DNA from: an uncultured delta proteobacterium
Lineage (GTDB): Bacteria; Myxococcota_A; Polyangia; Polyangiales; Polyangiaceae
Length of the DNA: 64,000 nt
Direction of reading: 5' to 3'
Assembly: GCA_963839305.1 (NCBI GenBank)
Contig: CAWIUL010000011.1
Coordinates: 2,441,561 to 2,505,560 of the forward strand
Positions 22,942-54,460 of the stretch are shown piece by piece; the first letter of the stretch is position 1, and every line of letters starts with the position of its first letter. The position numbers and the translations under genes are program-made. The notes beneath the pieces were generated by a model. It was not told the origin of the DNA, did no database searches, and saw only the letters and a program-made list of their open reading frames with translations.

Positions 22942-23547
22942 GTGATGAGCGTGCGTGTGAGAAAAAGGGCGCGGATGGAGCTAGACGAGCGGCGGGCGCA
23001 GCTGCTCGCGCTCGGGCTCGGCGTCTTCTCGTCACGCGCGTACGACGAGGTGTCGATGGAGGACATCGCTCGCGCCGCGGGGATCTCGAAGGGGCTCGTC
23101 TATCACTACTTTCCGACCAAGCGTCACTTCTACGTGGCGGCCCTCCGCGAGGCGGCGCGGCAGCTCCTCGCCGAGACCGAGCCCGACGTGTCGGACCCGC
23201 CGGAGGAGCGCCTCCGCAAGGGCCTCCGCGGTTACCTCGCGTTCGTCGAGAAGCACGCGCGCGCCTACGCGACGCTCATGCGGAGCGGCGTCGGCGTCGA
23301 CAAACAAGCGGGCACGATCATCGAGAAGACGCGCGCGCAGTTCATCGAGCGGTTCTTCTCGGCGCCCGAGATCGCGTCCTCGGCGACGCCGGCGATGCGC
23401 CTCGCGGTGCGCGGGTGGATCGGGTTCGTCGAGTCGACCGCGCTCGAGTGGCTCGAGGGGAAGGAGATCTCGCGCGAGGCGCTCTTGGATTTGTGGACGC
23501 GCGCGCTCTTCGCGACGGCTAGTCGGAGCGCGCCTGAACAGAGCTGA
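22942..23547 (+). CDS. TetR family transcriptional regulator
   Basis: HTH region YDEVSMEDIARAAGISKGLVYHYFPTKRHFY. Confidence 0.85.
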   Translation: MMSVRVRKRARMELDERRAQLLALGLGVFSSRAYDEVSMEDIARAAGISKGLVYHYFPTKRHFYVAALREAARQLLAETEPDVSDPPEERLRKGLRGYLAFVEKHARAYATLMRSGVGVDKQAGTIIEKTRAQFIERFFSAPEIASSATPAMRLAVRGWIGFVESTALEWLEGKEISREALLDLWTRALFATASRSAPEQS

Positions 23548-23572
23548 TCCGCCCTGGTGTTGAACGTCGACA

Positions 23573-23704
23573 CGCGGCAGCGTCGACCTTCCCGGCCGGG
23601 CCGGCACGTGCCGCGTCGATCCGAGAGTGTGGCCATGACCTCGGTGCGCCGCTCGCACGCTGATGCGGCATTTTGCGGCCCCGCCGCGAAGTCTCGCTGC
23701 CGCG
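23573..23704. repeat. copy 1 of a ~130-nt intergenic repeat element with a CGGCACGTGCCG palindrome and 10-bp terminal inverted repeats
   Basis: About 80% identical to 34588..34705. Terminal IR cgcggcagcg / cgctgccgcg. Confidence 0.5.
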
Positions 23705-23753
23705 TGTAGACGGCAACCCTGACTTGGTTAGGTCGCCCGACGTGAGCTCCTGA

Positions 23754-24962
23754 TTAACGTCGCGTCGCCATGAAGGCGACCGCAGACGCGAGCAAGATCG
23801 CGACGCCGGCGATGACGAGCGCGATCACCCACGGCGCGAGCGAACGCGCCTCGCGTGGCGGAGCGAGCGGCGCGGCCGGTATCGTGCGTGCGATGGGCGG
23901 ACGATACGAAGAGCGCTGCGTCGTGAGCATCGGGTCCGGCGGGGGCACGGGCGTGCGCGGCGGGAGCGGCGTCGTGCGCGGGGCGACCGTCGCAGGGGCC
24001 GTGGGGATCGGCATGTCGATCGTCTTCGGCACGGGCTCGGGCTCGAACGCGGCGGGCGTGCGAATCGTCGTCGCCGCGGACATGGGCGCGTCGAGCGGCG
24101 TCGGCTTCGCGAACGGCGTGAGCGCGCGGGCCATCTCCGCCGCCGATGCGTAGCGATCCTCCGGCCTCTTCGCGAGCGCGCGCTCGAGCACGCGCGAGAG
24201 CGCAGGATTCACGTCGCTTCGGAGCGAGGGAATCGGCGCGGGCATCTCCGTCATGATCTGCCGAAGGAGCGCGGCGGTCGTCGCCCCGTCGAACGGCTTT
24301 CGCCCCGTCAGCGCGAGGTACATCGTCGCGGCGAGCGAATAGAGATCCGCGCGTCCGTCGAGCGGCTCCCCCGAGGCCTGCTCCGGCGACATGTACGAGA
24401 GCGTGCCGACGACGAGGCCCGCGCGCGTCAGCTTCATGCCGCCCTCGTCGCGCCCGAGGAGCTTCGCGACGCCGAAGTCGAGCACCTTCACGATGTCGGC
24501 CTGCGCGCTCGTGCGCTCGAGGAAGATGTTGTCTGGCTTGATGTCTCGGTGCACGACGCTCGCGCGGTGCGCCGCGTCGAGCGCGGAGAGCACTTGGGTC
24601 GCGATGTACGCCACGCGCTCGGGCGGCAGCCGAGACATGCGCTTCAAGAGGTCGCGCAAGCTCTCGCCGTGGAGGAGCTCCATCACGAAGAACGGCGGCT
24701 CGCCCTCGCGCGCCTGAAAATCGCTGATTTGCACGACGTTCGGGTGACCGAGCATCGCGACGACACGCGCCTCGCGCTGGAACCTCCCGCGGAGCTCCGG
24801 ATCGCTCGTCAGGTGCGCGTGGAGGATCTTGAGCGCGACCTTGCGATCGAGGCCTTCTTGGATCGCTTCGTAGACCGCGCCCATTCCGCCCTGGCCCACG
24901 CGATCGACGACGCGATAGCGGCCGCCGAGGAGCGTTCCGGGCTGGATCTGCTCGGCCTGCAC
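23754..24962 (-). CDS. Ser/Thr protein kinase with Pro-rich region and C-terminal TM anchor
   Basis: GQGGMGAVYEA...VALK, HRDIKPDN, DFG, SPE motifs. Confidence 0.85.
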   Translation of the reverse strand: MQAEQIQPGTLLGGRYRVVDRVGQGGMGAVYEAIQEGLDRKVALKILHAHLTSDPELRGRFQREARVVAMLGHPNVVQISDFQAREGEPPFFVMELLHGESLRDLLKRMSRLPPERVAYIATQVLSALDAAHRASVVHRDIKPDNIFLERTSAQADIVKVLDFGVAKLLGRDEGGMKLTRAGLVVGTLSYMSPEQASGEPLDGRADLYSLAATMYLALTGRKPFDGATTAALLRQIMTEMPAPIPSLRSDVNPALSRVLERALAKRPEDRYASAAEMARALTPFAKPTPLDAPMSAATTIRTPAAFEPEPVPKTIDMPIPTAPATVAPRTTPLPPRTPVPPPDPMLTTQRSSYRPPIARTIPAAPLAPPREARSLAPWVIALVIAGVAILLASAVAFMATRR

Positions 24963-24966
24963 CGGT

Positions 24967-27368
24967 TCACTCGATCGTTGCGGTGACGCCGCCGGCGAGC
25001 CGGAGGACGATTTGATCGCCGTTCAAAAAATACGCGCTGCCGGTGGCCGCGCGCACCTCGGCCTCGCTGCCGAGCGCGGGGAGGTCGACGCCGTTCGAGA
25101 CGACGTGCGTGAGCGGCGCGGTCTTTCCGGTGCGCGAGCGGAGATCGAGCGTGCACACGATCGCGGTCGCGAGCGCGCCCGGAACGAACGTGAGCGTCAC
25201 GCCGTCGCTGTCGTCTCGGAGCGTGATCTGCGAGAGGTCGTCGAAGGCCGCGCTCGCGGGTCCGCTCGGCCACCCGCGCGCCTCGAACGTCGGGCGCTGC
25301 TGCGGCGTCACGATCGATCCGGCGGACGCAGAGACGAGCGTGTCGACGTCCGCCGCGAGCATCGGGACGAGCGCGCCGACGCGCCCGAAGAGCATGGGCG
25401 TTCCGAGCGGAGCGTCGATGGGCTCGTCGGTGGGACCTTGATGAAGGAGCCCGTTCGTGAAACCGACCCATTTTCCAGGCGGAAAATGCACCGTTCGCGA
25501 GGTCGCGCCCGCGATGACGACGGGCGCTGCGAGCAAATCGGGGCCGAGCATGTACTCGTCGTCGGCGAACGAGAAGCCCGCTGCGTCCGTGGGGAACGCG
25601 AGCGGCAGCGCGCGGATCGTCGGCGTGCCCACGTGCTCGGCCGCAACGAGGACCGAGGAGAGGTACGGCTCGAGCTGCGTGTGGAGGGCTGCGAGGCTTC
25701 TGTAGAGAGTCACAGTCTCCCCGTCGTACGCCCACGGCGCGTGAGTATCCCCTCCGCCGCCGAGCTGCATCACGACGGAGAGCGCGGTGTGCTCGGCCCA
25801 GCGGAGCATCGCCTCCTTGGTCGGCGCGCCGTGGCGGAAGCCGCCCGTGTCGGAGCCGAAGCTCGGAAAGCCGCTCGCCGCGAGGGTCTGTGCGGCGATC
25901 ACGGCGGACGGTAAACCGCCGACGAGGAGCGTCCCGCTCGAGTCCGCGTCGCCGTATTTCGAGAAGTCGTTGTCGAGATCGCCGGGCCAGATCACGTCGG
26001 TGATGGCCTCGCCGCCGTAGCTCGACGCGCGCACGAGGAGCATGCCGTCCGTCCGCGCGGCGTCGAGCGCTTGGTGGTAGGCCGCGTGGTAGCCGAGCGG
26101 GTAGCTGCGCGCGGTGCGATCGGTCTCGCCGTCGGCGAACTGGATGCCGATGCGCGCGTTGAAGAACGACGGCACGATGTCCTCGCCGTAGTCGAGCTTG
26201 AACCCCGCGGCGCCCAGCGACACCGCGCGCGACGCGAGGCCCGCCCAATAATCGCGGCCGGCGCTCGTCGTGAAGTCGATCATCCCGAACTGCAGCTTGT
26301 TGTCGGAGCCGAGCGCCGCGAACGTGCTCCCGTCCTTCAGCTTCACGAGCACGTCGGGCTGCGCGGCCGCTTGCGCGTAGAGCTGGCGCGCCTCGTCGTC
26401 GGGACCCGTTCCGGGCTTCTCGAGGTAAGGCTCCGACCAGAACATCACGCGGTAACCGAGCGCGCCGAGCTCTTGGAGAAGCCCCGGCGCGTCGGGGAAT
26501 CGCGCGGGATCGGGCACGAACGTGTTCCAAGAGGTCTGCCAGGGGTTGTCGATCCACATCGTCGTCGTCGGGATGTGGAGGGTGCGCATCATCACCGCGT
26601 CGTCGATCATCTGCTGCTGGCTGTCCCACGTGTTGCGCCAGTAGAACGGGCCGAGCGCCCAGCGCGGGAGGGGCCGCGGGAGGCCGGCGTGCTTGCGTGT
26701 ATTTTGCAACCACCTCGAGCGGGTCGCGCGCGAAGAAGAGCCAGGCGTTCACCACCTTGCCCTCGAACGTGACCGTGACCGCGCCCGCGTCGGTCTTCGC
26801 GACGTCGAACGCGCCCGACTCGCGGCTCTCGAAGAAGACGCCGTAGCCCTTCGACGAGACGAGCAGCGGCACGGGCACGTGCGCGTCGTTCGTCGCGGAC
26901 TCGAACTGCGCGTTGATCATGAGCTGCATGGCCACGACCGCGCCGCGCGCCGACACGTGCGAGAAGCGCTCGCCCATGCCCGTGTAGAACCCGTCGTCGC
27001 TCGCGAGCGTGAGGCGAACGAGCGTCGTGGGCGAGCCGTCGTCCTTCGTCGTCACGTGGAGGATGCCCGGCGCGGGGCTGTCAATCGAGACGTCGCGCGC
27101 CTCGAGGCTCGTGAAGTCGTACGCGCTCGTCTGCGTCGGGTCGTGCCACGCGTCGGGTTGCTCGGCGTCGAACGAGCGCGCGACGAGCGGCTTGCCCGTG
27201 ACCGTCGCGAGGAGCGGCGCGCCGTCGCGCGTCACGACGAGCGAGCCGTCGCCGCCGAACGTCGCGAACGTGCCGTCGCCGAGGATCGAACGTGCGCGGC
27301 GCCGCCGGGACCTCGTTCGACTCGCAAAACGCGCAGAAAACGAGCGGCGCGAGGGCAAGGAGGCGCAT
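24967..27368 (-). pseudogene. glycoside hydrolase family 31 (alpha-glucosidase/xylosidase), secreted; two frame breaks (~26695 and ~27295)
   Basis: Signal peptide MRLLALAPLVFCAFC. GH31 N-domain YGMGERF, VPLLVSSKGYGVFFES. Catalytic WIDNPW, GFKLDYGE, WPGDLDNDF, GSDTGGF. The reading frame switches twice between the three listed ORFs. Confidence 0.7.
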
Positions 27369-27487
27369 GGGCGTGGATCCGAAGCTACTCGAAAATTTGG
27401 CCCGACCGCGCGCGTTCCGATAGCGAATGAGCATCATCGGCGGCTGCCTTCGCGGATCACTCCGCGCGCCGCCAAGGAGAAGTGTCC

Positions 27488-27919
27488 ATGCGTCTCGCCA
27501 CGCTCGGTGTCGTCGTTTGTCTCGCCATCCTCGCGCCCGCGAGGGCAGCGGACGCGGATTCGAAGCACCTCTCGCTCGGGGAGATCGCGGTCCTGCCGAC
27601 CAGCGCGACGAACATGACCGGCGCGCTCAAGAGCGCGCTCGAGAGCGAGATGCGCGACCTCGACCTCCGCGGGACGCGCAAGGACGCGATCTTGTCCGTG
27701 TCGCTCGTGAAGCTCGACACCGCGCAGGAGCGCGGATCTTCGTCGTCCACCTGCGTCGTCTCCGCGACGCTCCGCTCGCGCAACGGCGTCCTCTTCGCCG
27801 TCCTCGAGGGCCGCGCGCGCGCACAAGGCTCGAGCAATCACGTCTCGGAAAACGCTCTCCGCGGCGCGGTCCACGGCGCCCTCTCGCGAGTCGCGGAAGC
27901 GCTCGAAATAGAGGGGTAA
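27488..27919 (+). CDS. hypothetical secreted protein
   Basis: AAGGAGAAG RBS; signal peptide MRLATLGVVVCLAILAPARA; non-junk composition. Confidence 0.5.
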   Translation: MRLATLGVVVCLAILAPARAADADSKHLSLGEIAVLPTSATNMTGALKSALESEMRDLDLRGTRKDAILSVSLVKLDTAQERGSSSSTCVVSATLRSRNGVLFAVLEGRARAQGSSNHVSENALRGAVHGALSRVAEALEIEG

Positions 27920-27920
27920 C

Positions 27921-27988
27921 AGGGAGATCGGGGAGATCAGGGAATTTGGGTTCGAAAACCCCAACTCTCCCGATCTCTCCGATCTCCC
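27921..27988. terminator. long imperfect hairpin between convergent genes (candidate bidirectional terminator)
   Basis: CAGGGAGATCGGGGAGATC ... GATCTCTCCGATCTCCCTG arms around a ~30-nt loop. Confidence 0.45.
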
Positions 27989-27998
27989 TGTTCAATCC

Positions 27999-28970
27999 TC
28001 ACGGGTAATCCGCCGAGGTCCGCGCGCCGATCTCCAGGTACTTCGTCGCTGACGCGTCCGGGTTGTAATACTCGTTGAAGACGCCCGAGACGGACGAAAA
28101 CTTCGTCTTCACGCCCGCCTCGAGGCCGACGAAGACGCCGTTGGCCATGTAGTACGGGCTGAGGCTCACGATGTCCGCGTCGCTCGCGCCGCCGTCGTAG
28201 AACGTGTTGCCGAGGCCGAACGTCTGATTCGGCTGCTTGGGCGTGCCCGTCACGTTCGCGACCTCCAAGAGGAGCGGACCATAGATCTGCTCGTACGCCG
28301 CGATCGATCCGATGTCGCCTAGCTGAACGCCGGTGATCGGCGTCGGCGTGCCGCTGCCGATCTTGAGCGCGCAGCCGGGCGAGATCGCGTCGACGTGGAG
28401 GATGAGCTCGTTCTGTCCGCCCTCGGCCTCGCGATACGCCCACGCCATCGCGTTCACCTGGTCGCCGACCGCGAGCGAGGTGAAGTATTTCGCCGTCGTG
28501 GACGAGATCCACACGCGGATCGCGTGCTGCGCGCCTGCCTCGAGCGACGTGTACGTGAGGTCTTGCTGCAAGATGAACTCGCACGCGACGCCGGCCGCGC
28601 AGGCGCCCTTCGAGAGCGCCGTCACGTAGACGCCGGGGAGCCAAACCTGCACGGGGACGGACGGATTCGCCGCCCACAAATCGGTGATGGCCTTCGTCGG
28701 CACGCCGTTCGGCTGGGAAGTGCAGTCGGGCCACGTGAAGCCGGGCGCGTCGGTCTTCGGCGCGTCGTTCGGGCTGTCCTTCGCCGCGTCGACGGTCTGC
28801 GCGACGTCGGGCGTTTGCGTCGCGTCGAGCCCGCTCGCGTCGGGACCCGTCGGGTTGCCGTTGTCGCCGCACGCCGAGACCACCGCCGCCGCCTGCGCGG
28901 AGGCCAAGAAAAGCACCAAAAAGCCCTTTTTCACGCGTGCCCATCTAGCACAAGCGCGCTTGCTGGGCAC
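27999..28970 (-). CDS. lipoprotein, hypothetical
   Basis: VVSACG lipobox; the start may be the internal GTG (VKKGFLVLF). Confidence 0.5.
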   Translation of the reverse strand: MPSKRACARWARVKKGFLVLFLASAQAAAVVSACGDNGNPTGPDASGLDATQTPDVAQTVDAAKDSPNDAPKTDAPGFTWPDCTSQPNGVPTKAITDLWAANPSVPVQVWLPGVYVTALSKGACAAGVACEFILQQDLTYTSLEAGAQHAIRVWISSTTAKYFTSLAVGDQVNAMAWAYREAEGGQNELILHVDAISPGCALKIGSGTPTPITGVQLGDIGSIAAYEQIYGPLLLEVANVTGTPKQPNQTFGLGNTFYDGGASDADIVSLSPYYMANGVFVGLEAGVKTKFSSVSGVFNEYYNPDASATKYLEIGARTSADYP

Positions 28971-28996
28971 GCCACGGCATGAGAAAACGATGGCCC

Positions 28997-30109
28997 ATGA
29001 AGCGCGCCCCCCTCGCAGGATTCGTCGTCGTCGCGCTCGCGTTCGCTTGCGGTGAGAGCTCGCCGCCGCCTCCGAACAACCCGCATCCGACGCCGAGCGC
29101 GTCCGCCGCGCCGACCACTTCGGCTTCGCAGACGGCTTCGGCGTCGGCTTCGGCTAGCGTCGTCGCGCCGCCGCCGAAGGACGTCGCGTGCGAAGCGCTC
29201 GACGAGGAGCGCAAGGCGCAGAACGCCAAGCTCAAGACGATCACCGAGAACAAGGACCCGCTCTCGCACGTGCAGTCGCTGAACGATGACGTGATGGGCG
29301 CCTTCACGAAATGCACGAAGACGAAATCGGGCGGCGCGTGGGGCCTCGGCCTTCGCGATTTGAAGGAGGAGCTCCACGGCGTCACCGCGCAGCTCGTCGC
29401 AATCCACGTCGATGCGAAGGGCGCCAAGTCGAGCGTCGTCCTCCAGGGCACGGCGCGCCTCAAGGACCGCGCTTTCCAGAGCCACGAGATGGACCGCGTC
29501 GCCATCGACACGCAGTCGGCCTACGACTTCGACGGCGACGGTGAGGACGAGCTCATCGCCATCGCGCACGACCAGACGAAGGACGGCCCGCGCGATCCGC
29601 TCGCGTACATCGTCGAGCTCAAGAACGGCAATGCGCAGATGTACGCGCCCGCGAAGGACCTCCCGATCTTCCGCGTCGAGGACGTCGATCGCGACGGCCG
29701 CCCGGATTTCGTCTCGTACGGTCCGTATCGCGCGCGCGTGCCGGCGCGCTGCAACGGCGCGCCCTCGCAGGTCGTCGGCCCGGCGCTGCTCGTGCACTCG
29801 CTGCCGAACGGGATGTTCTCGATGACCGACGACAAGGCGCTCGCGTTCGCGAAAGAGCACTGCGAAAAGCCCGGCTTCACCGTCGCGCGCGACGACGAGA
29901 AGCACGTCGACGACGATCAAACCTTCGTGAACATCGCGTGCGCTCGCCTCTGGGGCATGAGCGAGGCGCAGGCGGTCCAGGCCGTCGCGCAAAACTGCAA
30001 CGCGATCCGCGGCGAGGCGAGCTGCAAGGACACGTCGCTCACGACGTGCGTGTACCCCGCCGAGATGACCGCGTGGGCGCGCGCGAAGCCGCCGCTCGTC
30101 CTCAAATGA
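28997..30109 (+). CDS. lipoprotein, hypothetical (DFDGDGEDE acidic motif)
   Basis: MKRAPLAGFVVVALAFACG lipobox signal. Confidence 0.55.
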   Translation: MKRAPLAGFVVVALAFACGESSPPPPNNPHPTPSASAAPTTSASQTASASASASVVAPPPKDVACEALDEERKAQNAKLKTITENKDPLSHVQSLNDDVMGAFTKCTKTKSGGAWGLGLRDLKEELHGVTAQLVAIHVDAKGAKSSVVLQGTARLKDRAFQSHEMDRVAIDTQSAYDFDGDGEDELIAIAHDQTKDGPRDPLAYIVELKNGNAQMYAPAKDLPIFRVEDVDRDGRPDFVSYGPYRARVPARCNGAPSQVVGPALLVHSLPNGMFSMTDDKALAFAKEHCEKPGFTVARDDEKHVDDDQTFVNIACARLWGMSEAQAVQAVAQNCNAIRGEASCKDTSLTTCVYPAEMTAWARAKPPLVLK

Positions 30110-30912
30110 CGGCGCTCAAAGACGTCGAGCTCCACTACGACGTCCACCTCGCCGAGCACTACTCGTGGCTCTTCGGAGGCCTCCCGGAGCGCGTCGCGGA
30201 GAACCGCGCGCTCTTCGAGAAGCTCGGCCTTCGCGCGGAGCAGGGCGCGCGCGCCTTGGACGTCGGCGCGGGCTCGGGCTTTCAGTCGATCCCGCTCGCG
30301 CAGCTCGGCTACGCGGTCACCGCGGTCGACCTCAGCGCGAAGCTCCTCGGCGAGCTCGCGCAAAACGCCGGGGACCTGCCCGTCGAGACGATCCGCAAGG
30401 ACATCCTCGACTGCATCGTCGACATGCCGTCGAAGTCGTTCGCCGTGTGCGTCTGCATGGGCGACACGCTCACGCACCTCGGGAGCTTCGGCGACGTGCA
30501 GCGGCTCCTCCGCGAGGTGAACCGCGTGCTCGCGCCCGGCGGCACGTTCGTCGTCGCGATCCGCGACTACTCGCAAGAGCTCCGCGGCGACGCGCGCTTC
30601 ATCCCCGTCCGCGCCGACGAGCGCACCGTGTTCTCGTGCTTCCTCGAGTACGAGGGCGATCACGTGCGCGTCTACGACGTGATCCACTCGCGCCGAGAAT
30701 CGCGAAGCGACGCGGAGCGCTTCGAGAGAACGGGGGCGTCGGGGGCGCAGCCCCCGGCCGAAGATCTCGGCTGGGACATGCGCGTCTCGTCGTACAGGAA
30801 GCTCCGCATCGCGCCCGACTGGCTCGAAAAGCGCACCACCGAGACCGGCTTCGAGGTCGTCTCGAAGGACGTCGCGCACGGGATGTTCACCCTGGTTTTG
30901 CGCAGGGCTTGA
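30106..30912 (+). CDS. class I SAM-dependent methyltransferase
   Basis: LDVGAGSGFQSIPLAQLGYAVTAVDLS motif I. ATG overlaps the upstream lipoprotein stop (ATGA). Confidence 0.75.
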   Translation: MTALKDVELHYDVHLAEHYSWLFGGLPERVAENRALFEKLGLRAEQGARALDVGAGSGFQSIPLAQLGYAVTAVDLSAKLLGELAQNAGDLPVETIRKDILDCIVDMPSKSFAVCVCMGDTLTHLGSFGDVQRLLREVNRVLAPGGTFVVAIRDYSQELRGDARFIPVRADERTVFSCFLEYEGDHVRVYDVIHSRRESRSDAERFERTGASGAQPPAEDLGWDMRVSSYRKLRIAPDWLEKRTTETGFEVVSKDVAHGMFTLVLRRA

Positions 30913-30994
30913 TCCGTTTTGGAGCGCGGGCGCGCGGCGGCGCGCGCCGCTGCGCGGATTTGTGCGCGGCACGCGCGGTGCAATCCCATCGCGC

Positions 30995-33007
30995 ATGACC
31001 GACACGCGCGAACGCGACATCCTCGTGGCCTCGAACGAATATGCGTACGTCCAGGATCTGACGAAGGGCGACATCGTCCTCTACGTCGGACCGACGAAGA
31101 TCAGCCTCTCGAACACCGAGCGGCTCGTCGACTACCAAAACGGCCGGTTCTTGCCGATCCGCGCGGATGAAGGCAACGCCGTCGCGACGTTCGTGAGCGC
31201 GACCTCCTCGCAGTACATCGTGCTCGAGAACCCGCCGAAGGATCCCGGGGTCAAGCCCGTGAAGGGGAACAACAGCGCCGTCGAGCTCCGCATCGGACGC
31301 AAGGTCGTCGTGCCCGGGCCCTCGTCGTTTCCGCTCTGGCCCGGGCAGCGCGCGCGCGTCGTCGACGGTCACTCGCTGCGCGAGGACGAGTACCTCATCG
31401 TGCGCGTCTACGAGACCAACGAGGTGACCCAGCACCCCATCGGCACCGAGACGATCGTGCGCGGCACCGACACGAGCTTCTACGTCCCGACGACGGGTCT
31501 CGAGGCCGTCGCGACCCAATCGGGCTACGTGCGCAAGGCGCGCCGGCTGCGTCGCGGCAAGGGACTTCACCTCCGCGTCGTCAAATCGTTCGACGTTGCC
31601 GTTGGCGACGTCCCGCTTCGCGGATCCGTCGACGCCGTCGAGGGCGACACGCTCCCCCTCGGCCACTACGAGGCCGGCCAGGACATCTTCATCGCGGATC
31701 GCGAGGGCTTCTTCTTCCCGACCGCGAGCGTCGAGGTCGTGAGCGAGATCTCCGCGATCCCGCTCGGCGAGCGTGAGGGCGTCTACGCGCGCGACATCGC
31801 GAGCGGGCGGATCGAGACGGTCACCGGGCCGATCAACTATCTGCCCGATCCGACGCGCGTCGAGATCGTCGCGCGCTCGATCGACGACGACCGCGCGGAT
31901 CTCTACGGCGTCCCGCGCGATCGCGACGTGACGCGCGCGCTCTCGATCCACGTGCCCTCGAGCTTCGCGGTGCTCGTGACCGCCAAGAACAAACGCGAGG
32001 TCGTGCGCGGACCGCAGACGCGCGTGCTCGACTACGACGAAGACCTCGAGGTGCTCGAGCTCTCGACGGGCAAGCCGAAGTCGCAGGAGCGCACGCTCCG
32101 CACATGCTTCCTCCAGACCGACGGGAACAAGGTCTCCGACGTGCTGCGCGTGAAGACGGGGGACCACAACGAGGTCGAGGTCGTCGTCTCCTATCGCGTG
32201 TCGTTCGTCGGGCTCGAGCACGCCGAGCGCTGGTTCAACGTGAAGGACTACGTCGGCCTCTTGTGCGACCACGCGGGCTCGCTGCTCCGCGCCGCGGCGC
32301 GCGCTTGCTCGATCGAGGCGTTCTACCAGAACAGCACCGACGTCCTCCGCTCCGCGATCCTCGGCGAGAAGCGCGAGGGCGAGCCGCGCCCCGGCCGTCA
32401 CTTCGAGGAGAACGGGATGTGGATCTACGACGTCGAGGTCCTCGACGTGCGCATCCTCGATCCCGAGGTGCAGGTCCTCATCGGCGGCGCTCAGCGCAAC
32501 GCGATCGTCGCGGACGTGTCGAGGCGGCAGGAGCTCTTGCGGCTCGAGACCGAGCGCCTCAAGGAACAAGTGCGCCGCGCGATCTGCGACGAGCAAGCGC
32601 AGACGATGGTCGCGGAGCAGGCGCGCGTCGAGAAGAAGCGCGCGGTGGATCTCGCCACCGCCGAGTCCGCGGCCGCGGTCGTCGGAGTCTCGGACGCGGC
32701 GCGCATCGCGAGCAAGGAGCGCGAGAACGAGGTCGAACGGAAGATGCTCGACGCTCGCGTCGCCGCGTTCCGAGAGCAAATGGCCGCGCTCGCGCCCGAG
32801 CTCGTCTCGACGCTCAAGACGCTCGGTCACCAGCAGCTCGCCATGGAGCTCACGAAGAGCGCGTCGCCGCTGGCGATCCTCGGCGGCGAGAGCGTCACCG
32901 ACGTGGTCGAGCGCCTCCTCGGCGCGCTCCCCATCGGCGCGGATGCAACGTTGAAACAGCTGCTCCCTCCGAAGAACGGGCGCTCCGAGAAGGCCGCCAA
33001 GACCTGA
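30995..33007 (+). CDS. major vault protein (MVP) homolog: MVP repeats + shoulder (SPFH-like) + short cap-helix
   Basis: N-terminus [35 protein letters not shown] matches MVP [38 protein letters not shown] matches MVP DPFPLYPGE. The shoulder domain [27 protein letters not shown]...[10 protein letters not shown] is followed by a coiled-coil Glu/Arg-rich helix. Confidence 0.7.
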   Translation: [670 protein letters not shown]

Positions 33008-33030
33008 AAAAGCGGGTGTAGAGTGGGCAC

Positions 33031-34530
33031 GTGCGGAAGTCGTTCGCGATCGTCCTTGGGGCTGCGGCGATGTTGGGTGCGTGTGGGAAGACGCCACCGA
33101 GCGCGACCGACGCTGCACCGTCCGTGAGCGCGAACGCGGTGTTCGTCGTGCCCACCGTCGCTTGGGATCCCAAGACGCGCGACGACGCGATCGCCGCCGG
33201 CAAGGCGGTGCTCGTCAAGAACGAGTGCCGCCGCTGCCACGACATCGACGATCTCCCCGCGCCCGTTCGTCCCAACTACTGCACGAGCTGCCACGAGTTT
33301 CTCACGGGCCTCAAGCCCGGCGAGAAGCAGTACGAAGAGCTGAAGACGCGCTACGGCGAAGCGATCCTCCAGCGCTATCAGAAGAACATCGTGCACCTCA
33401 TCAAGGTGCCGAGCCTCACGAACCTCGGGTGGCGCGTGCGCGCCGACTACGTCGCGAGCTTCCTCTCCGAGCCGTACGACCAGCGGCCGACGCTCGAGGA
33501 GAGCATGATCCGCCACGCGCTGAGCGACGACGACATCAAGGCCGTCGCGCGCTACTTCGCGGCCGTCGCGAACGCGCCCGATCCGTACGCGGCAGACTAC
33601 AAACCACCCGCGCTCGGAAAGCGCCCCGCGCAAGAGCGCATCGAGAAGGGCAAGAAGCTCCTCGCGACCAAGGGCTGCAACGCGTGCCACACGTTCGGCA
33701 ACGTCGACCTCGGCTTGCCTCGCGCGTCGCTCGAGGGCGCGCGCGCGATGAACCAGCTCGCGCCGAACCTCCGCTACGCGAAGGAGCGAACGCGCCCCGA
33801 CGTGATCGTCGCGTGGATCCAGAACCCGCAGCAGATCACGCCCGGCACGATCATGCCGCCGAGCGGCCTCTCGCGCGACGAGGCCGAGCAGATCCGCGAC
33901 TACCTCTTCTTCGGCGATCCGGAGCTTCATCAGGCGCCCCCGACGCTCGTCCCGCCCGCGCCGCAGATCCTCCAGCGCGAGGTCCCGTGGGAGGAGATGA
34001 AGGCGCGCACGATCGGCAAGGTGTGTGTCCACTGCCACATGAACGACTTCGAGAAGGACACGGGCCCCGGCAACAAAGGCGGCTTTGGTTACAAAGGCAT
34101 CGGCCTCGCGATGCGCACGTACGAGGCGCTCGTGAACGGCGCCGTCGGCCCCGACGGCAAGCGCTACTCGGTCCTCGTGCCGAAGCAGGGCGAGACCGAG
34201 GCGCCGATCGTCGCGGCGATGCTCAGGCGAAAGACCGAGGAGCAGCGCGATCACGTCCCTGCGCTCGAGGACTACGACCGCCCGCACTACGCGAAGGCTT
34301 TCTCGGTCGCGTTTCTCGGGATGCCGATGGGGCTGCCGTCGATGACCGACGAGGAGATCTCGATCCTCGCGACGTGGATCGCGCAAGGTTGCAAGGGCCC
34401 GAAGACCGTGTGGGGCAAGCCGGGCGTCAACGACGGCCTGCTCGTGCAAGACGGTCCGCTCAAGAAGAACCAAGGCTGCGAGCAGCGACCGCCCGAGCAC
34501 CCGCGCCCGAAGTGGGCCTTCGATCAGTGA
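33031..34530 (+). CDS. tetraheme c-type cytochrome lipoprotein
   Basis: MLGACG lipobox. Four CxxCH motifs (CRRCH, CTSCH, CNACH, CVHCH). Starts 24 nt after the MVP stop. Confidence 0.7.
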   Translation: MRKSFAIVLGAAAMLGACGKTPPSATDAAPSVSANAVFVVPTVAWDPKTRDDAIAAGKAVLVKNECRRCHDIDDLPAPVRPNYCTSCHEFLTGLKPGEKQYEELKTRYGEAILQRYQKNIVHLIKVPSLTNLGWRVRADYVASFLSEPYDQRPTLEESMIRHALSDDDIKAVARYFAAVANAPDPYAADYKPPALGKRPAQERIEKGKKLLATKGCNACHTFGNVDLGLPRASLEGARAMNQLAPNLRYAKERTRPDVIVAWIQNPQQITPGTIMPPSGLSRDEAEQIRDYLFFGDPELHQAPPTLVPPAPQILQREVPWEEMKARTIGKVCVHCHMNDFEKDTGPGNKGGFGYKGIGLAMRTYEALVNGAVGPDGKRYSVLVPKQGETEAPIVAAMLRRKTEEQRDHVPALEDYDRPHYAKAFSVAFLGMPMGLPSMTDEEISILATWIAQGCKGPKTVWGKPGVNDGLLVQDGPLKKNQGCEQRPPEHPRPKWAFDQ

Positions 34531-34587
34531 GCTAGACGCAGCGCTCACCGAAGCAGAGCAGGTATTCGACCGTGTTTGCGTATGAAA

Positions 34588-34705
34588 CGCGGCAGCGTCG
34601 AAATTCCCGGCCGGACCGGCACGTGCCGTGTCGAACGAAGAATTTGGCCACGACGTTGATGCGCCACTCGCAGACTGACGCGGCACGTCGCGGCCCCGCC
34701 GCGCA
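34588..34705. repeat. copy 2 of the ~130-nt intergenic repeat element (CGGCACGTGCCG palindrome)
   Basis: Aligns with 23573..23704. Lies in the convergent gap between the cytochrome gene and the OPT transporter gene. Confidence 0.5.
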
Positions 34706-34734
34706 TTCTCAGGTCGGCTCGGGCGAGCTTCTGA

Positions 34735-36708
34735 CTACTCGAGGTAGCCCGCCGCGCTGAGGAGCGCGACGACGACGCCGAGCAAGCTCTCGCCCGCGAT
34801 GATTCCCGAGGCGACCGGCGTGACGTAGCGCTCCGCGTGCTCCGCGCGATACTTCGTCCACGCGTAGGCGATGAGCGCGCCAATGAACATCGAGACGGAG
34901 TTGAAGCACGGGATGACGAGCGCGAGCCCGAGGCCCGTCGCGCTCGGAATCCACTGCTTGTACTTCGGCAGCCACAGCTCGAGCAGCGGGAGCACGATGC
35001 CGATGAGGCCGCCGATGACGAGGCCCCAGCGCGCCCACGGGTGGAGCGACTCGACGCCGTTCGCGAGGACCTCGGCGACGCCCTTCCACACCTGCGCGCT
35101 CGGCGCGGGGAAGCGATCGGTGCCGAGCGCGTCGGGCGTCGGCACGAGGACGTAGAACGCCGGGACCGAGACCGCGGTCCCGACGAGCGTGCCCGAGAGC
35201 TGCGCGAGGAACTGCTGGCGCGGGTTCGCGCCGAGGAGGTATCCGCTCTTCAAGTCGTTGAGAAGATCGGCGGACGCGCCCGCGGTGCTCGCCGTGATGC
35301 TGGCGGTCATGAGGTTCGTGACGATCTTCGCGGGCGCGAGGATTCCGTACGTGAGCTGGGTGATCTTGCCCATCGCGCCGATCGGCGTGATGTCCGTCTC
35401 GCCGGTCGCGCGGCACGCGACGATCGAGAGCATGAACGCGAGCATGACGGCGATGACGCCGAGCCACGGGCGAATCTCGAACGCGACCCACCCGATGATG
35501 ACGATGCCGATCGTCGAGAGGACCGTCCCCACCGCGAACCAAGACGACGGGACCTCGATCTTCTCGAGCTCGCCGCGCGCCTTCTCGAGCGGATCCGCCG
35601 AGGCGGCGTCGTGGTGCTCTTTGCCCTTCTTGAGGAGCTTGCCGAAGCCCGAGAACGCGCGGAGCACCGTGCGCCATTGGAGCGCGAACGTGAGCAGGCC
35701 CGACGTGACCATGATCGCGGCGCCGGGCCACAAGCTGAACGACACGACGGCGCGGTAGCCGAGCGCGGGGGCGCCGTGCGCGTCGAGGTGCGTCTTGATG
35801 GCGCCAGCGTCGAGCGCCATCGGCGCGAGCACGCCGTAGTTCACGAGCGCCGCGACGAGCATGCTGATCGTCGTGCGCAGGCCCATCAGCATTCCCGCGC
35901 CGACCATGATGAGCGAACCCTCGAACGAGATCGTCCACTGCGTCAGCGCGAGGCCGCGGATCTTGAGGCCCGGGATCTTGATGAGCGACGGGATCGTCGG
36001 GTTGTCCGCCGGGCCGCAGAGCTTCGTGAGCGCGCCGAGGATCGGGTGACCGCCCGCGGCGTGCGCGTCACGGAGCCACGCGATGATCGCGCCGACGCCC
36101 ATCGTCGCGAAGAGCGAGCGCGCCTTCGTGATGGCCTCGCTGCCCGCGCCGTAGAGCGACTTGAGCGTCTCGGCCGCGGCGGTGCCCGATGGGAAGCGCA
36201 GCTTCTCGATGTTGATCATCTGGCGCTTCATCGGGATCGCCATGATCGTGCCGAGCACCGCGAGGAAGAACAGCCAGCCCATGAGCACGAACATCGGCAG
36301 GTGCTTGCCGCGCACGAGGAGCAGCGCCGAGATCGCCGACGCGAGGATCGTCGTCGTCGTGTTGGCGGCGCTCGACGCGGTCGACTGCATCGCGTTGTTC
36401 TCGAGGATCGTCATGTTCGTGCCGAACAGCCACGGCAGGATGCGCGACAGCGTCGAGTAGATCGCGAACGAGAGGATGCACGCGGTGATGGCGACGCCGA
36501 GCCCCCAGCCCGTCTTCAACCCGACGTACAGGTTCGACAGGCACATGATCGCGCCGATGAGGCTGCCGACGATGAACGAGCGCAGCGTGAACTGCCGGAC
36601 GTTTCCGCGGTAGACGTTGTGGAACCACTCGACCTCGGGATCGAGCTTGTCTTCCGGACGCGGGTTGGGCGCGCGATAGGGTTGTTCCTTGTCGGCGTGT
36701 TCGGCCAT
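34735..36708 (-). CDS. OPT family oligopeptide transporter
   Basis: About 16 TM segments; typical OPT/TIGR00733-like composition; 657 aa. Confidence 0.8.
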   Translation of the reverse strand: MAEHADKEQPYRAPNPRPEDKLDPEVEWFHNVYRGNVRQFTLRSFIVGSLIGAIMCLSNLYVGLKTGWGLGVAITACILSFAIYSTLSRILPWLFGTNMTILENNAMQSTASSAANTTTTILASAISALLLVRGKHLPMFVLMGWLFFLAVLGTIMAIPMKRQMINIEKLRFPSGTAAAETLKSLYGAGSEAITKARSLFATMGVGAIIAWLRDAHAAGGHPILGALTKLCGPADNPTIPSLIKIPGLKIRGLALTQWTISFEGSLIMVGAGMLMGLRTTISMLVAALVNYGVLAPMALDAGAIKTHLDAHGAPALGYRAVVSFSLWPGAAIMVTSGLLTFALQWRTVLRAFSGFGKLLKKGKEHHDAASADPLEKARGELEKIEVPSSWFAVGTVLSTIGIVIIGWVAFEIRPWLGVIAVMLAFMLSIVACRATGETDITPIGAMGKITQLTYGILAPAKIVTNLMTASITASTAGASADLLNDLKSGYLLGANPRQQFLAQLSGTLVGTAVSVPAFYVLVPTPDALGTDRFPAPSAQVWKGVAEVLANGVESLHPWARWGLVIGGLIGIVLPLLELWLPKYKQWIPSATGLGLALVIPCFNSVSMFIGALIAYAWTKYRAEHAERYVTPVASGIIAGESLLGVVVALLSAAGYLE

Positions 36709-45356: not shown

Positions 45357-46426
45357 ATGAAGCGATTTTTTTCGTTCGCCGTCTTCGCCCTCTTCACGCT
45401 CGTCTCCGCGAGCGCCCTCGCCGACAAAGTCGCAGTCCTTCCGTTCTTGGGAAGCGCGACGAAAGAGCAGCTCGACGCCGCGCGCCTCGCGACGCAGGGC
45501 GCGGTCATCGCGAAGGGCAACACGCCCGCGACCGAGTCCGAGCTCGTCACCGCGCAGACCGCGGTGGCCGACGGCGTCGCCGACACGAAGAACGAGTACC
45601 AAGCCGCGGGCCGCGCCTCGAGCTCGCAGTGGGTCGTCGTCGGGCACGTCACGCCGCACCCGACGAGCCCCATCAAGGGCGCGTACCGCGTCGAGATCGA
45701 GGCGTGCCAGGTCGACAGCGGCCGCGTCGAGTCGCTCGCGCGCGAGATCGATCCCTCGAAGGCGAACGCGCAAATCGCGGAGATGCTCGCGCTCCTTCTC
45801 CGCCCCGAGGGCCTCGCGAACGCCGAGATCCCCTGGGAGAACGAGGTCGTCAAACCTCCGCCTCCGCCTCCGCCGCCGCCTCCTCCTCGCCCCCGCCCCC
45901 GCCGCCGCCTCCTCCTCCGCCTCCGAAAATCCCCGAGCCCGATCGCGGCTACGGCATCCACGCGCCATGGGCCTTCGGATTCGGCGTCGGCGTCAACGGC
46001 GCGTTCGTGCACCCGACGGGCGGTTTTGGGTTCTCGACGTTCGCGTTCCTCGGCACGCTCACGGGCGAGTACGCGCCGCTCTCGGACGAGAAGTATCCGC
46101 AGATCCTCCGCGGGCTCGCGCTTCGCGCCGACTTCGGCGGAAACCTCTACGGTCCAGGCGCGGTCCAGCTCGACGTCGGCGGCCGCTGGGCGATCCCGAT
46201 CGTGCCGAAGATCCGGCTCTTCGTCGGCCCCGAGGTCACGATCGGCGGTTTCTTCGTGACGACCGGCGACAAGCAGGCGCGCTTCCTCCTCCGCACCGAC
46301 GCGTTCGCGTCGATCGGCTTCGGAGAGCACGTCCAGCTCGAGGCGGCGTTCGACGTGCAGAGCGCGTTCGGCGGAGAGGCGATCGTCGTCGGCGGCGCGA
46401 TGGTTCGCGCGCTCTATCGTTTTTGA
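45357..46426 (+). CDS. secreted/outer-membrane-type protein with poly-Pro linker; frame break inside the poly-Pro tract (~45880)
   Basis: Signal peptide MKRFFSFAVFALFTLVSASALA. After (P)12-14 the frame switches to ...GYGIHAPWAFGFGVGVNG...RALYRF (C-terminal aromatic). Confidence 0.5.
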
Positions 46427-53414: not shown

Positions 53415-53519
53415 GCCGTCTCCGTCCGTCTCCGTCTCCGACTCCGTCTCCGTCTCCGTCTCCGATCCGTCTCCGTCTCCGTCTCCGCTCCGCTCCGAAT
53501 CCGAATCCGAATCCGGGGG
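53415..53519. repeat. (CGTCTC)n hexanucleotide microsatellite (~12 units) followed by (CGAATC)3
   Basis: Direct tandem units immediately after the TGA of the kinase/ATPase gene. Confidence 0.75.
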
Positions 53520-53645: not shown

Positions 53646-53960
53646 ATGCTGAGGATTTATTCGTTCATCATCGAGACGCTTCGAAAGGTTGCTCCGGTCG
53701 TGCGTGCCATTGGCAAGCACGACCCGGATCTCGCGCGGCAGCTGCGGCGCGCCGCGAGCAGCATCGCGCTCAACACCGCCGAGGCGGTTGGGTCTCACGC
53801 CGGCAACGAGAAGGCGCGGTTTCGGACGGCGCTCGGCTCGACGCAAGAGACGCGCGCTTGCCTCGACGTGGCCGAGGTGTTCGGGTACGTCCAGACTGAC
53901 GCGCAGCTGCGTGACGATCTCGATCGCATCGCGGCGACGCTCTTCCGGCTCATCGAGTGA
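53646..53960 (+). CDS. four-helix-bundle protein (23S rRNA intervening-sequence protein / Avd-like family)
   Basis: DLARQLRRAASSIALNTAEAVG...RFRTALGSTQETRACLDVAE typical of PF05635. GGATGGAGG RBS. Confidence 0.7.
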   Translation: MLRIYSFIIETLRKVAPVVRAIGKHDPDLARQLRRAASSIALNTAEAVGSHAGNEKARFRTALGSTQETRACLDVAEVFGYVQTDAQLRDDLDRIAATLFRLIE

Positions 53961-54267
53961 GTCGGAAGAGCACCGCGCAGACCACGTCGAGCTTTGCGAG
54001 AATCGCGATATCGATCGCGTCGACGTAGCGAAACGCCCCCGCAACGTCCAGGCAGGCGCGCGTCTCCTTCGCGGAGTTTAGCGCGACGTTGTAGAGCGCC
54101 TTGCGATTGCCGCCGCGCGCGTAGCTTCCTTCGGCGACGTTCAGGACGACGCTACTCGCAGCCCTCCGCAGCTGCCGCGCAAGATCGGCATCCCGCCGCT
54201 CGATCGTGTTGATCACGCTCCGCAGCAGCTCGAGCATCGCAATCGCATCGTCATAGATCTTCAGCAT
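53950..54267 (-). CDS. four-helix-bundle protein paralog (23S rRNA IVS / Avd-like), convergent and 3'-overlapping
   Basis: MLKIYDD...DLARQLRRAASSVVLNVAEGSYARGGNRKALYNVALNSAKETRACLDVAGAF. About 50% aa and ~80% nt identity to its neighbour in inverted orientation. Confidence 0.7.
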   Translation of the reverse strand: MLKIYDDAIAMLELLRSVINTIERRDADLARQLRRAASSVVLNVAEGSYARGGNRKALYNVALNSAKETRACLDVAGAFRYVDAIDIAILAKLDVVCAVLFRLTR

Positions 54268-54420
54268 GATGAGCTCCTTTCGCCCTCGCGAGGGCGAAGC
54301 CCTCCCGCGCCGCGCGCAGGACGGGTCAAGGCTCGGCGAAGCCGACCGCCGCCGCAGGCGGCGGCTTGGCCTTGACCCGTGCGAGCACGGCGCGAAAATC
54401 GATCAGCCGAGCGAGCACAC

Positions 54421-54460
54421 CCCTCCGTCTCCGTCTCCGTCCCCGTCTCCTTCTCCTCTT
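54421..54460. repeat. second (CGTCTC)n-type microsatellite tract, same orientation as 53415..53519
   Basis: CCGTCTCCGTCTCCGTCCCCGTCTCCTTCTCC. Confidence 0.65.

What the first reader, a model, noticed from the sequence alone, without database searches (positions are those of the whole stretch)
23573..34705. Two copies of a ~130-nt palindrome-bearing intergenic element in convergent gene gaps
Sequences 23573..23704 and 34588..34705 align over ~120 nt at roughly 80% identity: cgcggcagcgtcga...tcccggccgg.ccggcacgtgccg.gtcga...ttggcca.gac...gatgcgcc.ctcgca...tgcggccccgccgcg. Each contains the perfect palindrome CGGCACGTGCCG (CACGTG core). Copy 1 is additionally closed by 10-bp terminal inverted repeats (cgcggcagcg/cgctgccgcg). 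Both copies sit in the same orientation in 3' intergenic regions between convergent genes (TetR/kinase and cytochrome/OPT). The pattern is consistent with a small structured RNA family, a REP/MITE-like repeat, or a shared regulator binding site.
Basis: seen in the sequence. Interest (0 to 1): 0.6.

Follow-up and report, generated by a model that had tools for sequence, protein, structure and literature searches.

The report
Dispersed hairpin repeat in gene gaps
Two related copies of a ~130-150-base hairpin-forming non-coding repeat were inserted between the ends of convergent genes in an uncultured Polyangiaceae (myxobacterial) genome; it is most likely a small mobile palindromic repeat of a familiar kind (MITE/REPIN/ERIC-like) and not a new type of system.

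Summary
Window 23569-23695 and 34584-34710 align without gaps over 127 nt at 82% identity (blastn E 1e-31). These are the only two copies in the window. Both lie in ~205-nt gaps between convergent genes (TetR/Ser-Thr kinase; cytochrome c/OPT). Copy 1 is a near-complete 148-nt hairpin (23565-23712) closed by 18-nt terminal inverted repeats. Copy 2 has lost the right terminus. A third, full-length copy (76% identity, both termini kept) lies in another Polyangiaceae MAG, between a DnaJ/TPR gene and an Hsp70 gene. So this is a dispersed family, not a local duplication. In syntenic relatives the same junctions are empty: TetR/kinase overlap by 23 nt or lie 6 nt apart, and cytochrome/OPT gaps are 3 and 13 nt. 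Other relatives hold different DNA there. Both window copies therefore sit in lineage-specific inserted DNA. There is no Rfam match. Frames are broken by indels. No transposase is encoded in the window and no target-site duplication is visible. Only three copies could be found, because the source genome was not retrievable. Best reading: a MITE/REPIN/ERIC-like non-autonomous palindromic repeat tolerated at 3' junctions, where it may also act as a 3'-end hairpin for transcripts from both strands. A new member of a known kind, of modest interest.

The parts
23565..23712 (+). Copy 1: full-length element, a 148-nt imperfect palindrome (one long hairpin)
   Evidence: Folds: RNA, z -5.7/-6.7; DNA, z -5.2. 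CM score 157.6 bits. Homology to copy 2 over 23569-23695.
23565..23582 (+). Left terminal inverted repeat of copy 1 (CGTCGACACGCGGCAGCG)
   Evidence: I2: 18 nt, 94% complementary to 23695-23712. The inner 10-11 nt (ACGCGGCAGCG) are shared with copy 2 and L023.
23695..23712 (+). Right terminal inverted repeat of copy 1 (CGCTGCCGCGTGTAGACG)
   Evidence: I2. The counterpart CGCTGCCGC is present in L023 and absent from copy 2.
23602..23613 (.). Perfect 12-nt palindrome CGGCACGTGCCG in the left arm of copy 1
23510..23753 (.). About 244 nt present in the window but absent from the syntenic relative L029; includes the last ~12 TetR codons, copy 1 and the rest of the gap
   Evidence: Alignment A3. L029 TetR and kinase overlap by 23 nt. 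L031 gap is 6 nt.
34584..34710 (+). Copy 2: 3'-degraded element; left terminus and core kept, right terminal repeat lost
   Evidence: CM 135.3 bits over 34580-34727. Inner arms 34602-34632/34677-34707 are 77% complementary.
34617..34628 (.). Perfect 12-nt palindrome CGGCACGTGCCG in copy 2
34531..34734 (.). 204-nt cytochrome c/OPT convergent gap; it is 3 nt in L031 and 13 nt in L035

Best explanation
The two sequences are members of a small dispersed family of non-coding, imperfect-palindrome repeats (~130-150 nt, with terminal inverted repeats GCGGCAGCG...CGCTGCCGC) carried by uncultured Polyangiaceae. The family is the myxobacterial counterpart of MITE/REPIN/ERIC/Correia-type elements. Shown: the copies are homologous, and they occur at three non-homologous intergenic sites in two genomes. 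The hairpin register is kept in all three. One copy is truncated. The window's two sites are tight or empty junctions in syntenic relatives, so the DNA carrying the elements was gained in this lineage. Inferred: the copies arrived by transposition or a similar copy-and-insert process, catalysed in trans by an enzyme encoded elsewhere in the genome. They persist at 3'-3' junctions because insertions there disrupt neither promoters nor coding sequence. Once there, each strand's transcript ends in, or runs through, a very stable hairpin. That hairpin may act as a transcription barrier or 3'-end mRNA stabiliser for both convergent genes, as REP, ERIC and Correia elements do (from my own knowledge of those families).
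For: Homology far beyond chance: 127 nt, 82%, E 1e-31. Third copy in Polyangiaceae MAG DASXHD010000130.1 (L023 3318-3447, 76% over 132 nt, both terminal repeats present), between a DnaJ/TPR gene and an Hsp70 gene on one strand, an unrelated context. Empty or different orthologous sites: TetR/kinase overlap 23 nt in L029 and lie 6 nt apart in L031; cytochrome/OPT gaps are 3 nt (L031) and 13 nt (L035); another palindrome sits there in L032, a Peripla_BP_2 gene in L033, and non-homologous DNA in the 91% relative L034. No copy in about 118 kb of syntenic relatives by blastn or CM. Hairpin: copy 1 z -5.7/-6.7; 85.5% of pair cells are paired across the three copies against 31-53% with slid partners. 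Non-coding: L023 carries 2-nt and 1-nt indels relative to the window copies, and a search with the translated element found no protein. Truncated copy 2 fits a decaying repeat. Copy-to-copy identity (82%) is about the same as 4-fold-site identity to the closest relative that lacks copy 2 (80%). This hints that the copies came from already diverged source copies, so more members may exist.
Against: Only three copies are known. The source genome (3.65-Mb contig) could not be retrieved, so the copy number is unknown. One exact-pattern scan each of the genome and metagenome collections found no other member. No target-site duplication is visible. No exact empty site could be aligned, because relatives are ~20% diverged and the gained DNA (about 200-244 nt) is larger than the element. 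No transposase, RAYT, integrase or reverse transcriptase is encoded in the window. There are no T-tracts after the hairpin, so it is not a canonical intrinsic terminator.
Confidence: 0.6

Rival explanations
1. A selected cis-acting 3'-end module: a long hairpin that serves as a bidirectional transcription terminator or mRNA 3'-end stabiliser for convergent genes. On this reading it is kept for that function and spread by recombination, not by a transposase. This overlaps with the best explanation: the origin differs, the present effect is the same.
For: Both window copies sit exactly between convergent 3' ends, and the L023 copy follows a gene's 3' end. Both strands of copy 1 fold equally strongly. 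Other convergent junctions in this clade carry unrelated long hairpins: window 27918-27992, where L029 has a 1-nt gap, and L032 16547-16652. This suggests that hairpins at such junctions are tolerated or favoured.
Against: No T-tract follows the stems. Relatives manage with 3-13-nt gaps or overlapping genes at the same junctions. Copy 2 has lost its outer stem, and its + strand folds no better than shuffled sequence (z -0.9).
Confidence: 0.2
2. A family of small structured RNA genes (sRNA) transcribed from their own promoter.
For: The hairpin is conserved across three copies, with a few double changes. The + strand consensus fold is somewhat better than the - strand (-67.1 vs -58.0 kcal/mol), and G-U pairs outnumber A-C mismatches (about 12 vs 4 cells, counted).
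Against: No Rfam family matches, even at E<=10. No promoter-like or terminator-like sites. A simple near-perfect palindrome is typical of mobile repeats and not of sRNAs. Four of the six double changes lie in the outer helix, outside the homologous core. The element is absent from close relatives. The G-U excess is biased, because the structure was predicted on the + strand.
Confidence: 0.07
3. A shared binding site (CGGCACGTGCCG, CACGTG core) for a transcription factor that co-regulates the neighbouring genes.
For: A perfect 12-nt palindrome is identical in the copies. A TetR gene lies next to copy 1.
Against: The site lies downstream of all the window genes concerned, not in promoter regions. 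Homology extends over 127 nt, not just the palindrome. The three neighbourhoods are functionally unrelated. Relatives lack the site at the same genes. Invariance in L023 comes from how it was found. The other 26 genome hits to the pattern are coding-sequence coincidences.
Confidence: 0.04
4. A remnant of a local segmental duplication within this 11-kb region.
For: The two copies are 11 kb apart in the same orientation.
Against: Nothing else between or around them is duplicated. A third copy exists in another genome at an unrelated locus. The intervening genes are single-copy and syntenic with relatives.
Confidence: 0.03

Closest known systems
ERIC/IRU elements of Enterobacteriaceae and Correia (NEMIS/CREE) elements of Neisseria: 100-160-nt imperfect-palindrome, MITE-like intergenic repeats (from my own knowledge)
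   Same: Size (~130-150 nt). The whole element is one long imperfect palindrome with terminal inverted repeats. Intergenic, non-coding, likely co-transcribed with flanking genes. Presence/absence polymorphism between related genomes. Truncated copies.
   Different: Correia elements make a TA target duplication and occur in hundreds of copies. Here no duplication is visible and only three copies are known. No sequence similarity. The host is a high-GC myxobacterium.
REPINs (REP doublets forming hairpins) mobilised by RAYT transposases (PMC3116915, PMC3337134; abstracts seen)
   Same: Two inverted arms separated by a spacer (30-nt arms, 44 nt apart) form a long hairpin. Non-autonomous. No target duplication expected. 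Degraded singletons occur.
   Different: No RAYT gene in the window. Copy number unknown. The arms are longer than typical 20-40-nt REPs, and there is an extra outer terminal repeat pair.
GTAG- and CGTC-tagged REP superfamilies (Di Nocera et al. 2013, PMC3733652)
   Same: Copy 1 begins with CGTC and ends with GTAGACG, and CGTCGA recurs inside the element. It is palindromic and extragenic.
   Different: CGTC REPs are defined by an unpaired CGTC tag, 8-9-bp stems starting with A-T pairs, 4-5-nt loops and a CCA tail, 20-40 nt in all. Here the CGTC is base-paired, the stems are G+C-only and the unit is 148 nt. Myxobacteria are not mentioned in that paper (0 occurrences).
Integron attC sites and retron msr/msd hairpins (considered because both are long imperfect palindromes; retrons are common in myxobacteria; from my own knowledge)
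   Same: A 60-150-nt imperfect palindrome located after a gene's 3' end.
   Different: No integrase or reverse transcriptase gene nearby. The flanking genes are syntenic housekeeping-type genes in convergent orientation, not a cassette array. GTTRRRY/RYYYAAC-like motifs occur only near copy 1 and not near copy 2 or L023 (read directly).

Membership tests
MITE (miniature inverted-repeat transposable element) | Terminal inverted repeats | tested here: met
   18-nt TIR, 17/18, in copy 1. GCGGCAGCG/CGCTGCCGC also present in L023. Copy 2 keeps only the left one.
MITE (miniature inverted-repeat transposable element) | Multiple dispersed copies at non-homologous sites | tested here: inconclusive
   Three copies at three unrelated sites in two genomes. 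Genome-wide copy number could not be counted, because the source genome was not retrievable. Collection scans with exact patterns found no more.
MITE (miniature inverted-repeat transposable element) | Target-site duplication flanking the element | tested here: not met
   No direct repeat abuts the termini of copy 1 or L023 (sequence). The flanks of copy 1 continue the palindrome instead.
MITE (miniature inverted-repeat transposable element) | Parent IS/transposase with matching ends | not testable with these tools
   No transposase domain in ~45 window ORFs. The rest of the genome is not available.
MITE (miniature inverted-repeat transposable element) | Filled versus empty orthologous sites | tested here: met
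   Both junctions are empty or tight in syntenic relatives. The boundaries are not exact, because relatives are ~20% diverged.
REPIN/RAYT system | Two inverted REP units forming a hairpin | tested here: met
   Inner arms of 30-31 nt, 77% complementary, 44 nt apart, in both window copies.
REPIN/RAYT system | A RAYT (IS200-like Y1 transposase) gene flanked by the repeats; tens to hundreds of copies | not testable with these tools
   None in the window; whole genome unavailable.
CGTC-tagged REP superfamily (PMC3733652) | Unpaired terminal CGTC, 8-9-bp stem beginning with A-T pairs, 4-5-nt loop, CCA tail | tested here: not met
   Definition read. In copy 1 the CGTC is paired, the stems are G+C-rich and much longer, and there is no CCA tail.
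Rfam RNA families | Score at or above a family's gathering threshold | tested here: not met
   0 hits at gathering. The best permissive hits are 9-15 bits, E 1.8-7.
Intrinsic (Rho-independent) terminator | G+C-rich stem-loop followed by a T-tract | tested here: not met
   No terminator-like site in either gap on either strand. No T-run follows the stems.

The most novel reading that the evidence does not exclude
In this Polyangiaceae clade, convergent gene junctions repeatedly and independently acquire long (75-150-nt), sequence-unrelated perfect or near-perfect hairpins. There are three in 15 kb of this window and a different one at the same cytochrome/OPT junction in L032. The element studied here would be one such hairpin that became copy-competent. 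On this reading the hairpins form a distinct class of T-tract-less bidirectional termination or anti-collision modules, generated de novo or mobilised by an unknown mechanism that targets 3'-3' junctions. The invariant CGGCACGTGCCG palindrome would be the recognition site of the mobilising or binding protein.
Probability: 0.1. Interest if true: 0.6.

Novelty: new member of a known kind. Interest (0 to 1): 0.3.

Why it matters
Small palindromic repeats are well described in Proteobacteria, Neisseria and cyanobacteria. My literature searches found nothing on them in myxobacteria. A defined family in uncultured Polyangiaceae would be a useful marker for strain typing and for dating insertions. 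It would also mark where assemblies may break. It offers a test case for how very gene-dense, high-GC genomes, in which convergent genes abut or overlap in relatives, tolerate or exploit hairpin insertions at 3'-3' junctions. It does not change the understanding of any pathway, and the flanking genes appear intact.

Tried and rejected
(1) Retrieving the source genome: exact-protein look-ups for OPT, the Metal_hydrol protein and P0001 (100% identical, 3.65-Mb contig) all returned 'not on record', so copies could not be counted genome-wide. (2) Genome-collection scan with CCGGCCGGNCCGGCACGTGCCG: 27 loci, of which 26 are coding-sequence coincidences (orthologous gene sets in Planctomycetota, Acetobacteraceae and actinomycetes) and only L023 is homologous. 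(3) Metagenome scan with CGGCACGTGCCGN{57,67}CGGCCCCGCCGCG: one hit, a chance match in a planctomycete-type prepilin gene. (4) Viral contigs, plasmids and phages: no match. (5) Searching 5.8 billion predicted proteins with the translated element (open frame on the - strand), hoping for spurious ORF calls over other copies: nothing. (7) A local nhmmer run returned nothing, not even for the window itself, presumably a file-format problem; blastn and the covariance model were used instead. (8) Sigma-54 promoter reading of GGCACG...: the GC of the -12 element is not at the required spacing (read from the sequence), so rejected. (9) attC, retron and CGTC-REP readings rejected (see Closest known systems and Membership tests). 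(10) Target-site duplication: none found. (11) Literature searches for myxobacterial MITEs/REPs gave nothing relevant.
Full report
OBSERVATION. The two stretches exist as described. MAFFT, blastn and the repeat finder all give one ungapped alignment of 127 nt, window 23569-23695 against 34584-34710, at 82% identity (blastn E = 1.3e-31 within the window). The window is 69% G+C. The many other 'repeat families' listed by the repeat finder are 65-75% matches of 36-50 nt in coding sequence, typical of such composition. The 127-nt pair (family D11) is the only long one. The palindrome CGGCACGTGCCG is present once in each copy. Blastn and a covariance model built from all known copies find no third copy in the 64 kb.

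ANATOMY. Copy 1 is more than a repeat with 10-nt ends. Positions 23565-23712 form one almost continuous 148-nt hairpin. As RNA it folds at -93.5 kcal/mol on the + strand (z = -5.7 against dinucleotide shuffles) and -92.6 on the - strand (z = -6.7). As single-stranded DNA it folds at -54.4 (z = -5.2). The hairpin is closed by 18-nt terminal inverted repeats with 17/18 complementary bases. Inside, 30-nt arms (23588-23617 / 23662-23691, 77% complementary) are separated by 44 nt. Copy 2 keeps the left terminus (ACGCGGCAGCGTCGA), the inner arms and the centre. Its right terminal repeat is unrecognisable. Its + strand folds no better than shuffled sequence (z -0.9), while its - strand folds at z -4.0. 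It is therefore a degraded copy.

CONTEXT. Pfam confirms the neighbours. TetR (22942-23547, +) converges on a Ser/Thr protein kinase (23754-24962, -), leaving a 206-nt gap. A cytochrome c protein (33031-34530, +) converges on an OPT transporter (34735-36708, -), leaving a 204-nt gap. Neither gap has a sigma-70-like promoter or a stem-plus-T-tract terminator on either strand. Rfam finds nothing at gathering thresholds in the whole window and only noise (9-15 bits, E 1.8-7) in permissive scans of the two gaps.

COPIES ELSEWHERE. A scan of one genome per GTDB species for the 22-nt block CCGGCCGGNCCGGCACGTGCCG gave 27 loci. In 26 of them similarity stops at the pattern, and the pattern lies in coding sequence shared by orthologous genes. 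These are coincidences. The 27th, L023, is from a Polyangiaceae MAG (DASXHD010000130.1). It matches copy 1 over 132 nt at 76% (E 3e-20) and copy 2 over 117 nt at 74%. It has both terminal repeats (GGCGGCAGCG ... CGCTGCCGCT) and folds into the same outer hairpin. It lies in a 246-nt spacer between the 3' end of a DnaJ/TPR gene and the start of an Hsp70 gene, both on the same strand. This shows that the family is not confined to convergent gaps or to this locus, which removes the 'local duplication remnant' reading. The window's own genome is not in that collection. A metagenome scan with a two-block pattern returned one unrelated chance hit. Viral contigs, plasmids and phages gave nothing. A search of 5.8 billion predicted proteins with the translated element also gave nothing.

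ORTHOLOGOUS SITES. A gene midway between the copies (28979-30109) has a 100%-identical entry on a 3.65-Mb contig, which is the source and was not retrievable. It also has 75-82% relatives on long contigs, annotated where named as Polyangiaceae. Five syntenic loci were recovered.

- L029: collinear with the window from 18.6 to 33.0 kb at 78-84% nt identity. Its TetR and kinase genes overlap by 23 nt. The alignment shows about 244 nt (window 23510-23753) with no counterpart.
- L031: same gene order as the window throughout (MVP-like, cytochrome c, OPT). The TetR/kinase gap is 6 nt and the cytochrome/OPT gap is 3 nt.
- L035: cytochrome/OPT gap of 13 nt.
- L030 and L032: a small gene lies between TetR and the kinase.
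- L032: a 106-nt cytochrome/OPT gap filled by a different, A+T-rich palindrome.
- L033 (OPT 90% aa): a periplasmic-binding-protein gene lies there.
- L034 (OPT 91.5% aa): at least 114 nt downstream of OPT that do not align with the element.

None of these loci contains a copy, by blastn or by the covariance model, over about 118 kb in total. So the DNA carrying both window copies was gained in the window's own lineage, or lost everywhere else, which is less parsimonious. These 3'-3' junctions are hot spots of turnover. The boundaries are not clean. The gained DNA (about 200-244 nt) exceeds the element, the relatives are too diverged for an exact empty site, and no target-site duplication is visible.

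STRUCTURE CONSERVATION. On the three-copy alignment, RNAalifold predicts 53 pairs. 85.5% of pair cells form standard pairs, against 31-53% when partners are slid by 1-3 columns. So the hairpin register is a shared feature. Six pairs show double changes, but four lie in the outermost helix, where the sequences are no longer homologous. With three sequences the shuffle control (9-29 of 500) is not persuasive. The + strand consensus is somewhat more stable than the - strand (-67.1 vs -58.0 kcal/mol). Since the structure was derived on that strand, this does not identify a functional RNA strand. L023 differs from the window copies by one 2-nt and two 1-nt indels, so the open frames seen across the copies are a G+C artefact and not a gene. 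The invariance of the CACGTG palindrome in L023 carries no weight, because L023 was found with it.

MOBILISING ENZYME. About 45 ORFs with coding-type GC3 across the window were scanned against Pfam. There is no transposase, RAYT/Y1 transposase, integrase or reverse transcriptase. If a partner enzyme exists, it is elsewhere in the genome.

TIMING (inference). Four-fold-site identity in OPT is 80% between the window and L034 and 72% to L033. That is about the same as the 82% between copy 1 and copy 2. Copy 2 is absent from the L034 junction. So the two copies probably did not arise from one another after that split. More likely they descend from already diverged source copies. This weakly predicts further members in the genome. 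GC3 bias limits the value of this comparison.

INTERPRETATION. The most economical account is a small non-autonomous palindromic repeat family of the MITE/REPIN/ERIC/Correia kind (confidence about 0.6). The supporting features are dispersed homologous copies, terminal inverted repeats, a whole-element hairpin, a truncated member, and presence/absence at orthologous sites. All are as in those families. Missing are a copy count, a target duplication and a partner transposase. The strict CGTC-REP definition (PMC3733652) is not met. Where the element sits, transcripts of both convergent genes would end in, or read through, a hairpin of -50 to -90 kcal/mol. A barrier or 3'-stabiliser effect is plausible, by analogy with REP, ERIC and Correia elements, but it is untested, and relatives do without it. 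The sRNA, regulator-site and duplication-remnant readings are less likely, for the reasons given under Rival explanations.

VERDICT. This is a real feature and a new member of a known kind. Interest is modest (0.3). It would rise only if the junction-hairpin pattern noticed in passing turns out to be a general, mechanistically distinct phenomenon in this clade.

Noticed in passing
window 27918-27992: A second, unrelated 75-nt near-perfect palindrome (33-nt arms, 85% complementary, 9-nt loop; GGGAGATC-rich; DNA fold z -6.9). It lies in the 79-nt convergent gap between ORFs ending at 27919 (+) and 27999 (-). In the syntenic relative L029 the corresponding genes are 1 nt apart. No other copy in the window or the fetched loci.
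   Followed up: partly
L032 16547-16652: The cytochrome c/OPT junction of a 76%-related Polyangiaceae contig holds a ~106-nt A+T-rich near-perfect palindrome, unrelated in sequence to the window's element and sitting exactly where the window has copy 2. Together with the item above, this suggests that convergent junctions in this clade repeatedly acquire long hairpins.
   Followed up: partly
L034 3099-3212 (shown reverse-complemented): The 91% relative has a short terminator-like hairpin with flanking T/A runs (TTTTCGGCGGCGAAGCCGACGAAAA) downstream of OPT in place of the element, and the contig ends inside this gap.
   Followed up: no
window 23510-23547: The last ~12 codons of the TetR gene (…FATASRSAPEQS*) have no counterpart in L029, where TetR runs on into the kinase 3' end. 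The gained DNA therefore supplies a new C-terminal tail and stop codon for TetR.
   Followed up: no
window 53422-53498 and 54421-54456; 45854-45924: Runs of CCGTCT/CCGCCT-type short repeats (repeat family D6) lie in and around the 541-nt gap after the AAA_16/TPR gene. Probably low-complexity coding or spacer sequence; not examined.
   Followed up: no
window 53950-54402 (-): A 150-aa ORF matching Pfam 23S_rRNA_IVP (four-helix-bundle 'intervening sequence protein', E 4e-12), with no rRNA gene nearby (no Rfam hit in the window).
   Followed up: no
window 30683-33007 (+): A bacterial protein with Major Vault Protein shoulder and repeat domains (MVP_shoulder E 8e-28, Vault_3), conserved in the syntenic relatives.
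   Followed up: no
L002, L014, L017, L021, L025 (and L004, L005, L012, L013): The 22-nt search pattern recurs in two sets of orthologous coding regions in Planctomycetota and other MAGs. One contig is labelled Candidatus Kuenenia stuttgartiensis yet has 66% G+C, which suggests a mis-binned contig.
   Followed up: no
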